Assembly (NCBI RefSeq): GCF_009914755.1
Contig: NC_060932.1
DNA: 64,000 nucleotides
Source of the DNA: the human T2T-CHM13v2.0 reference genome, Homo sapiens
Strand: one strand, 5' to 3'
Positions 26,900 to 29,027 of this stretch are shown one piece after another. The notes below the pieces were generated by a model, which was not told the DNA's origin, searched no databases, and saw nothing but the letters and a program-made list of their open reading frames with translations. The translations under genes were made by a program, and so were the position numbers. Numbering within the stretch: the stretch's first letter is position 1; the number at the start of each line of letters is the position of its first letter.

Positions 26900-26970
26900 T
26901 CCATCCATTTATCTATCCACCCATCCACCCATCCATCCATCCATCCATCCATCCATCCATCCATCCATCA
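26900..26970. repeat. (CCAT)n tetranucleotide microsatellite in EGR3 intron 1
   Basis: Read directly. Confidence 0.95.
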
Positions 26971-27042
26971 CCAGGTCGTCCCCTCCTCCTCTTCCTCTCC
27001 CCTTCCTTCCTCGCTGCCTCGCCGCCTCCCCGCCGCCCTTAC

Positions 27043-27196
27043 CTGTAGCCATCTGATTGTAATGGACTACCGAGTCGCTGCTGCCGGAGAAGAGGTTGAG
27101 CGCGCTGGGGATCTCCTCGGGGTACAGATTGTCAGGCAGTTGGTTTAGCAAACTGCTCATGGTCACCGGCAGCTTCTCGGCGAGTTTGCCGGTCAT
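27043..27196 (-). CDS. EGR3: EGR3 exon 1 CDS ([51 protein letters not shown])
   Basis: ATG at 27196, donor ACAG|GTAAG at 27042; 154 nt, phase 1, joins exon 2. Confidence 0.98.
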
Positions 27197-27210
27197 AGCA
27201 CTCCCGAGCT

Positions 27211-27243
27211 GCCGCCGCCGCCGCCACCGCCGCCACCGCCGCC
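27211..27243 (-). repeat. Proximal GGC/GGT trinucleotide tract (11 units) in EGR3 5'UTR
   Basis: ggc ggc ggt ggc ggc ggt ggc ggc ggc ggc ggc, ending 14 nt before the ATG. Confidence 0.95.
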
Positions 27244-27597
27244 GCTCGCTCCTAACGCAGCTTCCAGGCAAGCGGCATCCGAGAGGCGATCCGTGGTGCA
27301 GGGGAAAAGCATGCGAGAGGGAAAGTTCGGGGGGAGGGGGGAGGGAAGAAGGGAAGGGATGGGCCAGGAGAGGGGATCTTCTCTTTTTTGGGGGGCGGGA
27401 GAGGGCCCCAGGGGGTAATCCTCTTGGGTGCCTCAGCTGGTGCGGTATGAGGCTGGGTCGTGGGGGGGGTGGGGCGTGTGCGGGGGGTGGGGTGGGGGCT
27501 GGGCTGGGGGGGGATCTCGGCTCAAGGGGGTCGGACGCGGCCTCAGTATTGATCTCACAAACAGACACGCGCCCGCCGCCCCCCCGCCCCCCGATCT

Positions 27598-27612
27598 GCC
27601 ACCGCCACCGCC

Positions 27613-27651
<39 letters not shown>
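27598..27651 (-). repeat. Distal (GGC)10(GGTGGC)4 tract in EGR3 5' leader
   Basis: 18 Gly-codon units; degenerate extension to ~27697. Confidence 0.95.
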
Positions 27652-27753
27652 TCTGCCGCCGCTGCCGCCGCTGCTACCACCACCACCAGCCCCGCCGCTT
27701 CCTAGCAAGCTCACTGCTGCCCAAAAGCTCCCAGCCAGGGAACTCCACCAGCC

Positions 27754-27837
27754 TATTTATCTGAGCCCCGGGAAAGCTCCGTGACGTAGCTGCCCATATA
27801 TGGACAGACAAAGCCCAGCCGAAGGGGCGCGACGTCA
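27754..27837 (-). promoter_or_regulatory. EGR3: EGR3 core promoter: TATA-like box, CRE half-site, CArG/SRE, near-consensus CRE
   Basis: ATAAATA 27760-27754; TGACGT 27782-27787; perfect CArG CCATATATGG 27794-27803; CGACGTCA 27830-27837. Typical immediate-early architecture; TSS inferred near 27730. Confidence 0.85.
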
Positions 27838-29027
27838 CAATGGAAGCTCCTCACAATGGAACATTAGAAAGCAGGAAGCGGGCCGCAGCCAACGTGCGGC
27901 GCCCGCACCGCTCGCGGCTCTTGAAAAAAAGAGAAGGGGAGAAGAAACAAGAAGAATGCGAGAAGAGAGAGGAAAGAAGGATACAGCTGCATGCAAAGCG
28001 CAAAGCGCGTAGCGTGGAGTCGAAACACCAGTAACTCATTGTGTGTGTTTATTTGAGGTTTGCGTTAGGAGAGCGCATTGGGGAGAGGTGGGCGGTGGGG
28101 TGGGGTTGTTTGCAAGTGGTCTCCAACACCCCAGCAGTTAGAAAGAGAGTTGAAAACATCTGGCGAAATCCCTTTGCAGCCCGGGAACTGCTGGGGAACC
28201 CGGAAGGCGTGCGTTGCGCCCCTGCTACCTCAGCGGCTCCAGCGTTCGGGATCCTATCCGAGATTAAGAGAAAGGGAGTGCTTCCCTTTGTGGGGGGAAG
28301 GAGGGGTGCGCGCAGGGTTGGGGGGGTGTTTCAACTTGTCAGAATTCCTTGGTCCAATATCCCAAGAACTTTTGTGCCAACTTCACTCTGATTCGCCGCC
28401 CCTGCCCCTCCCTGGGCCCCTGACCCGGCGCTGACTCTAGGCTGAGCGCAGTGGCGAGGAGATTCGGAGCACCCCAGCAGTTGCGCCAAAGACAAGAGCC
28501 CCATCCATATGGGGTCGAGGATGTGCGGTTTTCGTGGTGAAGAGGAAAGAATGAAGTTGAAGGGATAGATAAACACGTGCACTGAATCCCCAGTAAATTC
28601 CCTAACGGTTCCAAGCAGCCTCTGTGGCCACAGGATGGCAGGAGGGCCCAGCAGGCCCGGGCGCAGTCGCTGTCTACTGCTGCCTGCGAAGGGCCCGCCA
28701 GAGTTCCAGAAGGAGGACGCCGAACCCACAGTCTCTGAGCCACTGGGGGCCTCCCCTAGTCTCTGCCCTCCCCCTCGCCTTCCACAGGGCTGTCCCCATT
28801 GCTGCCTGCCGGCGCTCCGCAGTCAAGGGCGGCCTGTGTGCCGACCCGGAGCGCTTTCACCTCCCGGAGCGGCAGCAGATCCCGGGGGCGGCTGCTGTGC
28901 TCCCTGGGGCCTGCTCCCGAGGCGCGCGCAGCCGGCCCGCGGGCGAGGGGGAGGAGAGGGCGGGAGCATGGGGGTGCGACCCCAAATCACATCGGCTTGG
29001 CGGGGGAGGATTCCCTCCTCGGTGGCC

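What the first reader, a model, noticed from the sequence alone, without database searches (positions are those of the whole stretch)
27193..27312. AUG-initiated poly-glycine uORF in the EGR3 leader whose stop overlaps the EGR3 start codon
Seen: the minus-strand ATG at 27312 opens a 39-codon frame, [24 protein letters not shown]11-SSGVL*. It reads the proximal GGC tract as poly-Gly and stops at TGA 27195-27193, overlapping the main ATG (CT-ATGA-CC). It is too short for the ORF track. Established: the NOTCH2NLC uN2C uORF and FMR1 FMRpolyG read 5'UTR GGC repeats as polyG, which is toxic on expansion; AUGA stop/start overlaps can couple termination to reinitiation. Inference: EGR3 output may be tuned by this uORF. 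In-frame repeat-length changes would keep the overlap, so this is a candidate polyG locus. The uAUG context is weak (C at -3 and +4).
Basis: partly seen in the sequence, partly recalled or inferred. Interest (0 to 1): 0.8.

Follow-up and report, generated by a model that had tools for sequence, protein, structure and literature searches.

The report
Catalogued poly-glycine upstream ORF of EGR3
The short poly-glycine reading frame in front of the human EGR3 gene is really there, but it is already listed in a public catalogue of ribosome-covered small ORFs, looks evolutionarily young and unconstrained, and is an arrangement that chance produces easily.

Summary
The minus-strand ATG at 27312 opens 39 codons ([24 protein letters not shown]11-SSGVL). 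The frame ends at TGA 27195-27193, inside the ATGA of the EGR3 start. The uAUG context is weak.

It is not new. The identical peptide is GENCODE Ribo-seq ORF c8riboseqorf23 in Table S1 of Sandmann et al. 2023. That table gives: EGR3, uoORF, 'primatomorpha - young', PhyloCSF -3.23 in primates and -20.90 in mammals, and 0 mass-spectrometry studies.

The arrangement is not beyond chance. About one third of 5000 dinucleotide shuffles of the leader give an AUG uORF ending on the ATGA, or one reading the tract as poly-Gly. The ATGA reflects a Met-Thr N-terminus that paralogue EGR2 shares (ATGATGACC). The EGR2 leader has no uATG and no GGC tract.

The Gly tract is short and interrupted: GGC2-GGT-GGC2-GGT-GGC5. 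It has the same length in CHM13 and GRCh38. Folding is no stronger than shuffles (z 0.17).

Best reading: a young, weakly initiated uoORF that mildly lowers EGR3 translation and makes no functional peptide. Coupled reinitiation and a poly-G disease role remain untested and unlikely. Interest is low.

The parts
27193..27312 (-). Upstream overlapping ORF (uoORF) of EGR3: 39 codons plus stop. Identical to GENCODE Ribo-seq ORF c8riboseqorf23.
   Evidence: Translation. The identical peptide and a 120-nt span on GRCh38 are in Sandmann 2023 supplementary file 2, row 6639.
27310..27312 (-). uAUG in weak context (tctcgcATGc; C at -3, C at +4)
27211..27243 (-). Proximal GGC/GGT tract read as 11 Gly: GGC2-GGT-GGC2-GGT-GGC5
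27193..27196 (-). ATGA stop/start overlap: main EGR3 ATG 27196-27194 and uoORF TGA 27195-27193. The A is the first base of the Thr2 codon ACC.
   Evidence: EGR2 begins ATGATGACC.
27252..27278 (-). Second, nested uORF in another frame: ATG 27278, 8 codons [11 protein letters not shown] 27254-27252. Context tctcggATGc.
   Evidence: It is not listed in the six supplementary files searched, where EGR3 occurs once.
27197..27732 (-). 5' leader of NM_004430.3: 536 nt, 72% G+C, holding the two uATGs
   Evidence: Supplied annotation; composition
27043..27196 (-). First coding part of EGR3 ([13 protein letters not shown]...). The next in-frame ATG is at 27160 (gtgaccATGa).

Best explanation
The frame 27312->27193 (minus strand) is a genuine AUG-initiated upstream overlapping ORF of the main EGR3 mRNA. 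It is already catalogued as Ribo-seq ORF c8riboseqorf23.

Most likely it is a young, peptide-neutral by-product of a long, GC-rich, stop-poor leader. The likely mechanism has these steps:
- Most scanning 43S complexes pass the weak uAUG (C at -3 and +4) and start at the better main AUG (G at -3, A at +4).
- A minority start at the uAUG, translate 39 codons including 11 Gly, and terminate on a UGA that sits one base into the main start codon.
- Those ribosomes are lost to the main ORF. While terminating they physically cover the main AUG.
- Only a small share would reinitiate, either by a one-base back-step or at the in-frame AUG 36 nt downstream.

The net effect is a mild, constitutive damping of EGR3 synthesis from transcripts that carry exon 1. 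The peptide itself has no function. The short, GGT-interrupted Gly tract is not expected to expand.

Shown: the anatomy, catalogue membership, lack of coding constraint, chance-level architecture, absence from paralogue EGR2, and no special RNA fold. Inferred: the share of ribosomes diverted, the occlusion, the low reinitiation, and the direction and size of the effect on EGR3.
For: - Anatomy and Kozak contexts.
- Catalogue row: identical peptide, EGR3, biotype uoORF, 'primatomorpha - young', mode 'unknown', 0 MS studies, PhyloCSF -3.23 (primates) and -20.90 (mammals). Definitions of these labels were read.
- Chance level: 33.6% and 33.4% of 5000 shuffles reproduce the overlap and the poly-G uORF respectively.
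- ATGACC (Met-Thr) is shared with EGR2 (ATGATGACC). About 336 nt of EGR2 leader has 0 uATG and no GGC tract. EGR1 and EGR2 have no row in the same catalogue table.
- The 181 nt around the ORF fold at -79 kcal/mol, z 0.17 against 200 shuffles, with 107 shuffles folding at least as well.
- No Rfam family matches 26900-27900 at E <= 1.
- The non-repeat part is single copy in the assembly: 1 of 42 matches spans bases 1-120, and the other 41 cover only the GGC tract.
- Established knowledge (recalled, from no call): out-of-frame overlapping uORFs repress the main ORF in proportion to uAUG strength, and reinitiation falls with uORF length.
Against: - I saw no footprint data. Which and how many profiling studies called the ORF is unknown to me, because paper reading closed.
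- The catalogue authors report that ATG codons of young translated sORFs are kept more often than those of untranslated controls (63.3% against 35.8%). The start codon here is scored as kept back to the primatomorpha ancestor. Some selection on the act of translation is therefore possible.
- The uATG count is half the shuffle expectation (2 against 4.05). That is compatible with purging of uATGs and with retention of this one for a reason, though it is not significant (14.5% of shuffles have 2 or fewer).
- No reporter or mutational data exist in the texts I could search.
Confidence: 0.6

Rival explanations
1. The AUGA overlap couples termination of the uORF to reinitiation at the EGR3 start, so the uORF is a selected tuning device for this immediate-early gene. 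Repeat-length change in the Gly tract alters that tuning.
For: - The stop/start overlap is real.
- The ORF is in the ribosome-profiling catalogue, and its ATG and frame are scored as kept across primatomorpha.
- Changes of whole GGC units keep the frame, as the sequence shows directly.
- Reviews on termination-reinitiation exist (PMC10275272 and PMC5972666, seen only as search listings).
Against: - The overlap arises in a third of shuffles. It follows from the Met-Thr start shared with EGR2, whose leader has no uORF.
- The UGGGA motif that I recall as defining viral coupled reinitiation is absent from the uORF. Only CGGGA is present, at 27206.
- 39 codons is long for efficient reinitiation (recalled knowledge).
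- The region has no special fold.
- The peptide and frame show no constraint in mammals.
Confidence: 0.13
2. The ORF is not meaningfully translated. The catalogue call rests on sparse or mis-assigned footprints, such as ribosomes initiating at the main AUG that cover the last bases of the uORF, or reads in a low-complexity GGC tract. The frame would then be a chance arrangement with no effect.
For: - The uAUG context is weak.
- The architecture is at chance level.
- 0 MS studies and negative PhyloCSF.
- GGC-tract look-alikes occur at 41 or more other places in the assembly, so reads there map ambiguously.
Against: - The ORF passed the filters of a consortium catalogue of 7,264 ORFs.
- An AUG in a capped, scanned leader is normally used at some level (established knowledge, recalled).
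- 69 nt of the ORF 5' of the tract are unique sequence.
Confidence: 0.2
3. The proximal tract is a latent poly-G disease locus of the FMR1 / NOTCH2NLC kind. Expanded alleles would be translated from the uAUG into a toxic poly-glycine protein.
For: - The tract is read as Gly from an AUG in a 5' leader of a neuronally induced gene.
- The known class is described in the abstracts listed (PMC8186563, PMC5263258, PMC12987736, PMC9153130).
Against: - Only 11 units, interrupted twice by GGT, with a longest pure run of 5.
- The same 120-nt length and identical peptide in CHM13 and GRCh38.
- No main text in the searched library links EGR3 with polyglycine, CGG repeat, GGC or tandem-repeat expansion on this topic, judged from titles and abstracts only.
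- EGR3 mRNA is transient.
Confidence: 0.03
4. The 39-residue peptide itself is a functional microprotein.
For: The ORF is catalogued and its frame is kept in primatomorpha.
Against: PhyloCSF is -3.23 and -20.90, 0 MS studies, and the sequence is scored 'young'. Eleven of its 39 residues are the Gly run and four more are Ser beside it.
Confidence: 0.03

Closest known systems
GENCODE Ribo-seq ORF c8riboseqorf23 (EGR3 uoORF), as tabulated by Sandmann et al. 2023, Mol Cell (PMC10032668, Table S1)
   Same: It is the same object. The peptide is identical, the strand is the same, the span is 120 nt, and the host gene is EGR3.
   Different: Nothing differs in sequence. The table gives no comment on the Gly tract, the AUGA overlap or any function. 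No main text in the searched library names the ORF id (0 papers).
NOTCH2NLC uN2C uORF and FMR1 FMRpolyG (poly-G repeat-expansion loci)
   Same: A GGC repeat in a 5' leader lies inside a small upstream frame that reads it as glycine. For uN2C the frame is a small uORF (abstract of PMC8186563).
   Different: The EGR3 tract is 11 units with two GGT interruptions, and no expansion or polymorphism is known to me. From recall: FMRpolyG starts at a near-cognate codon, whereas this frame starts at an AUG.
Inhibitory overlapping uORFs of stress-regulated mRNAs (ATF4 uORF2 type; recalled)
   Same: An out-of-frame uORF ends beyond the main start codon, so ribosomes that translate it miss the main AUG.
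   Different: No short permissive uORF lies upstream of it. The only other uORF (27278-27252) starts inside it. The delayed-reinitiation switch layout is therefore absent.
Viral stop/start overlaps with coupled termination-reinitiation (calicivirus, influenza B; recalled, with reviews only listed)
   Same: A four-base AUGA overlap of stop and start.
   Different: The recalled UGGGA motif is not upstream, the region has no distinctive fold, and no Rfam element matches.

Membership tests
Ribosome-profiling-supported upstream overlapping ORF (GENCODE Ribo-seq ORF catalogue, class uoORF) | AUG start inside the annotated 5' leader of a coding transcript | tested here: met
   ATG 27312 lies 420 nt from the annotated 5' end (27732) and 116 nt before the main ATG (supplied annotation).
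Ribosome-profiling-supported upstream overlapping ORF (GENCODE Ribo-seq ORF catalogue, class uoORF) | Stop codon lies past the main start codon, in another frame | tested here: met
   TGA 27195-27193 against ATG 27196-27194, in frame +1.
Ribosome-profiling-supported upstream overlapping ORF (GENCODE Ribo-seq ORF catalogue, class uoORF) | Called translated from ribosome footprints | tested here: met
   Listed as c8riboseqorf23 with the identical peptide. I saw neither the footprints nor the list of source studies, because paper reading closed.
Poly-G repeat-expansion loci (FMR1, NOTCH2NLC and the like) | GGC repeat of a 5' leader read as Gly from an upstream start codon | tested here: met
Poly-G repeat-expansion loci (FMR1, NOTCH2NLC and the like) | Long, largely pure repeat that varies in length in the population | tested here: not met
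   Purity is not met: 11 units with 2 GGT interruptions and a longest pure run of 5. Length is equal in CHM13 and GRCh38, 120 nt each. Population variation could not be tested.
Poly-G repeat-expansion loci (FMR1, NOTCH2NLC and the like) | Expanded alleles in patients, with poly-G inclusions | not testable with these tools
   No on-topic paper by title or abstract (1 paper; 4 papers, 2 listed; 50 papers, 20 listed; 20 papers, 15 listed). Supplements were not searched.
Coupled termination-reinitiation of the viral type | Overlapping or adjacent stop and start codons | tested here: met
   ATGA at 27196-27193.
Coupled termination-reinitiation of the viral type | Upstream UGGGA motif complementary to 18S rRNA (motif recalled from memory) | tested here: not met
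   There is no TGGGA between 27732 and 27193. The only one is at 27733. CGGGA occurs at 27206.
ATF4-type delayed-reinitiation leader | A short permissive uORF placed upstream of, and separate from, the inhibitory overlapping uORF | tested here: not met
   The only other AUG uORF (27278-27252) starts inside the overlapping one.

The most novel reading that the evidence does not exclude
The uoORF is a primate-lineage translational governor of an immediate-early transcription factor. The uAUG has been kept since the primatomorpha ancestor because its use, and a termination event sitting exactly on the EGR3 start codon, sets how much EGR3 is made per mRNA during the short induction pulse. Unit changes in the Gly-coding tract would then act as a heritable rheostat or, rarely, as a poly-G liability. 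My evidence does not exclude this. It shows only that the layout needs no selection to arise and that the peptide is unconstrained.
Probability: 0.07. Interest if true: 0.6.

Novelty: already known. Interest (0 to 1): 0.22.

Why it matters
EGR3 is an activity-induced transcription factor in neurons, T cells and muscle spindles, so any brake on its translation would be of interest. GGC repeats read as glycine from upstream ORFs are an established disease mechanism. This ORF, however, is already in the reference catalogue of ribosome-covered small ORFs and shows no coding constraint. Its layout is expected by chance in a GC-rich leader, and its repeat is short and interrupted. What this check adds is that the catalogued ORF carries an 11-Gly run and ends on the main start codon. 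No main text found by the ten searches comments on either point, judging from titles, abstracts and the two papers whose passages I read. That is worth one line in a list of poly-G-capable uORFs and does not call for a dedicated follow-up.

Tried and rejected
- **Orthologous leaders.** No mammalian genomes are on hand. A scan of genome contigs with the 51-residue exon-1 peptide, made in case host DNA lay in an assembly, matched 600 stretches by pattern but none by tblastn. The assembly has no relatives in the genome search. I therefore cannot say whether the uAUG exists in non-primate mammals. The catalogue label 'young' concerns amino-acid similarity, not the ATG.
- **Special RNA structure.** This was rejected: z 0.17 and no Rfam hit.
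- **Duplicated or repeat-derived origin of the ORF.** This was rejected: the non-repeat part is single copy.
- **A shared EGR-family uORF.** This was rejected for EGR2. EGR1 and EGR4 exon 1 were not found by the peptide search (2 matches in all) and were not examined.
- **Literature.** Ten searches were run. Passages were read only in PMC9074895 and PMC12649029 (both irrelevant to the ORF) and in PMC10032668.
  - The Mudge et al. 2022 paper was not held under its DOI.
  - PMC10928160 has EGR3 in its title and one occurrence of 'upstream open reading'. It could not be opened, so I do not know what it says.

Full report
**1. The observation**

Reading the minus strand and translating 27312-27193 gives [39 protein letters not shown] followed by a stop: 39 sense codons. 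The stop TGA occupies 27195-27193. The annotated EGR3 start ATG occupies 27196-27194, so the two share the ATGA at 27196-27193.

A script over exon 1 gave these figures:
- The leader is 536 nt and 72% G+C.
- The uAUG context is tctcgcATGc, with C at -3 and +4.
- The main start context is agtgctATGa, with G at -3 and A at +4.
- There are exactly two uATGs in the leader.
- The second, at 27278, opens an 8-codon frame (MPLAWKLR, stop TAG 27254-27252) nested inside the first in a different frame.

The 11 glycine codons are GGC GGC GGT GGC GGC GGT GGC GGC GGC GGC GGC, at 27243-27211. Tandem Repeats Finder reports 27211-27245, period 3, 87% matches.

**2. Is it more than chance?**

No. I made 5000 dinucleotide-preserving shuffles of the leader with the ATGACC... 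start kept fixed.
- 33.6% contained at least one AUG ORF ending exactly on the ATGA.
- With the tract and everything 3' of it fixed, and only the upstream part shuffled, 33.4% contained an AUG ORF that reads the tract as poly-Gly and ends on the overlap.

This is close to the one in three expected for an AUG falling in a given frame of a stop-poor, GC-rich leader. The observed two uATGs compare with 4.05 +/- 1.47 expected, and 14.5% of shuffles have two or fewer. That is a mild, non-significant shortage.

The A that makes ATG into ATGA is the first base of the Thr2 codon ACC. The paralogue EGR2 was found in the same assembly with the EGR3 exon-1 peptide (2 matches, EGR3 itself and C10 at E 0.034). 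It begins ATGATGACC, Met-Met-Thr. The frame +1 stop on the start codon is therefore a by-product of a shared N-terminus.

The stretch of EGR2 between its TATA-like element and its ATG (about 336 nt, 46% G+C) has no ATG and no GGC tract. The uORF is thus specific to EGR3.

**3. It is already catalogued**

The supplementary Table S1 of Sandmann et al. 2023 (Mol Cell; PMC10032668) annotates the 7,264 ORFs of the GENCODE Ribo-seq ORF catalogue. It has one EGR3 row. That row reads:
- id c8riboseqorf23, peptide identical;
- GRCh38 chr8:22692941-22693060, minus strand, 120 nt;
- biotype uoORF;
- conservation 'primatomorpha - young', mode of evolution 'unknown';
- number of MS studies 0;
- PhyloCSF -3.23 in primates and -20.90 in mammals.

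EGR3 occurs once in the six supplementary files searched. EGR1 and EGR2 have no row in that table.

From the passages read:
- 'Young' means an amino-acid conservation score below 8 across non-primate mammals.
- 'Primatomorpha' means that the ATG (same position, or within 6 nt in frame) and at least 70% of the frame are intact in the reconstructed ancestor of primates and colugos.
- 4,914 of 6,506 young ORFs fall in that class.
- The authors find that PhyloCSF scores of young ORFs resemble untranslated controls.
- They also find that ATG codons of translated young ORFs are kept more often than controls (63.3% against 35.8%).

The label says nothing direct about the ATG in, for example, rodents. 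I could not see which profiling studies called this ORF, because the paper reader closed.

The CHM13 window and GRCh38 give the same 120-nt length and the same peptide. This is a two-haplotype hint that the tract is not highly variable.

**4. Surroundings and structure**

- The 181 nt from 27330 to 27150 fold at -79 kcal/mol. Shuffles average -79.7 +/- 4.1, z is 0.17, and 107 of 200 shuffles fold at least as well. The region is strongly structured only because it is GC-rich.
- No Rfam family matches 26900-27900 on either strand at E <= 1.
- The 69 nt 5' of the tract are single copy in the 3.1-Gb assembly. Of 42 matches to the 120-nt query, one spans it all and 41 cover only the GGC tract.
- The five-base motif that I recall as the hallmark of viral coupled termination-reinitiation (UGGGA) is absent between the transcript start and the overlap. 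CGGGA occurs at 27206.
- On the plus strand a 201-codon Arg-rich ATG frame (27159-27764) runs antisense through the leader. I take it as a composition artefact of a stop-poor GC-rich stretch. No gene is annotated there.

**5. How it most likely works**

The steps that are shown:
- an AUG in weak context lies 116 nt before a better main AUG;
- the frame is out of frame with the main ORF and overlaps it;
- it is in the ribosome-profiling catalogue;
- the peptide is unconstrained.

The steps that are inferred from general scanning rules (recalled, not from a call):
- most 43S complexes leak past the uAUG;
- those that start there cannot use the main AUG;
- while terminating on UGA they cover the main AUG;
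- after 39 codons few resume and reinitiate.

The result would be a modest constitutive reduction of EGR3 synthesis from transcripts that carry exon 1. RefSeq also lists transcripts with other 5' exons, which would lack the ORF (supplied annotation). I put this reading at about 0.6.

The rivals are:
- a catalogue call without real translation, about 0.2;
- selected coupling through the AUGA, about 0.13;
- a latent poly-G expansion locus, about 0.03;
- a functional peptide, about 0.03.

**6. Comparison with what is known**

The object is identical to c8riboseqorf23.

It works like other out-of-frame overlapping uORFs. It lacks the layout of the ATF4-type switch, because no separate short uORF lies upstream of it.

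It resembles uN2C of NOTCH2NLC in being a small upstream ORF that reads GGC as Gly (abstract of PMC8186563). It fails the repeat-purity feature of expansion loci. No expansion or polymorphism report surfaced by title or abstract:
- EGR3 with polyglycine: 1 paper, a review on steroid receptors in breast cancer.
- EGR3 with 'CGG repeat': 4 papers, 2 listed, on G-quadruplex variants and on RNA-binding proteins.
- EGR3 with GGC: 50 papers, 20 listed, none on a repeat.
- EGR3 with tandem repeat and expansion: 20 papers, 15 listed, none on this locus.

Searches for EGR3 with uORF found 6 papers. Searches with 'upstream open reading' found 8 papers. None treats this ORF by title or abstract. Two were opened and were irrelevant. 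One, PMC10928160, could not be opened. The ORF id occurs in no main text. Supplementary tables of other papers were not searchable by these searches and may list the ORF or the repeat.

**7. Verdict**

Three points count against the interpretation:
- The feature is already known.
- Its striking details (Gly frame, AUGA overlap) are what chance and a conserved Met-Thr start produce.
- Its repeat is a poor expansion candidate.

Interest is low.

Noticed in passing
window 27252-27278 (-): A second AUG uORF of 8 codons (MPLAWKLR, weak context tctcggATGc) is nested in another frame inside the poly-G uORF. It ends 56 nt before the main AUG and before the GGC tract. It is not in the supplementary files searched.
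   Followed up: partly
window 27433-27714 (-), tract 27598-27671: The longer distal GGC/GGT tract has no AUG upstream of it in the transcript. It is in the Gly frame of a 93-codon frame opened by GTG 27714 or TTG 27708, only 18-24 nt from the annotated 5' end, which closes at TGA 27435-27433. It contains the longest pure GGC run of the leader, ten units counted by eye.
   Followed up: partly
window 27572-27592 (-) and about 27330-27520 (-): A G-quadruplex-type run lies in the mRNA sense just 3' of the distal tract. It is followed by about 190 nt of very C-rich leader with long C runs. TRF reports 23-, 8- and 7-base periods there.
   Followed up: no
window 27779-27803 (-), and L010 about -408 to -384 from the EGR2 ATG: A 25-base promoter block is shared almost exactly between EGR3 and its paralogue EGR2: CCATATATGG followed by an ACGTCA core, with 24 of 25 bases equal by eye. 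In both genes a TATA-like ATAAATA follows about 35 nt downstream. From recall these look like a serum-response (CArG) box and a cAMP-response-like element.
   Followed up: partly
window 27158-27160 (-): The next in-frame ATG of EGR3 (codon 13, context gtgaccATGa) is also followed by A, giving a second ATGA 36 nt downstream. From recall, shorter EGR3 isoforms made from internal start codons have been described. I did not check this.
   Followed up: no
G000 contig C13, 5783082-7004339: Matches to the GGC tract of the query recur on C13 at a constant spacing of 46,970 bases, in 27 rows. I take this to be a large tandem array, presumably the ribosomal DNA of an acrocentric short arm. That is inference only.
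   Followed up: no
window 26900-26969: A (TCCA)17.5 tetranucleotide repeat lies in EGR3 intron 1, just beyond exon 1. The unspliced read-through frame of exon 1 runs into it (...[15 protein letters not shown]).
   Followed up: no
window 27159-27764 (+): A 201-codon antisense ATG frame, Arg/Gly-rich, spans the whole leader. It is most likely a composition artefact and nothing is annotated there.
   Followed up: no
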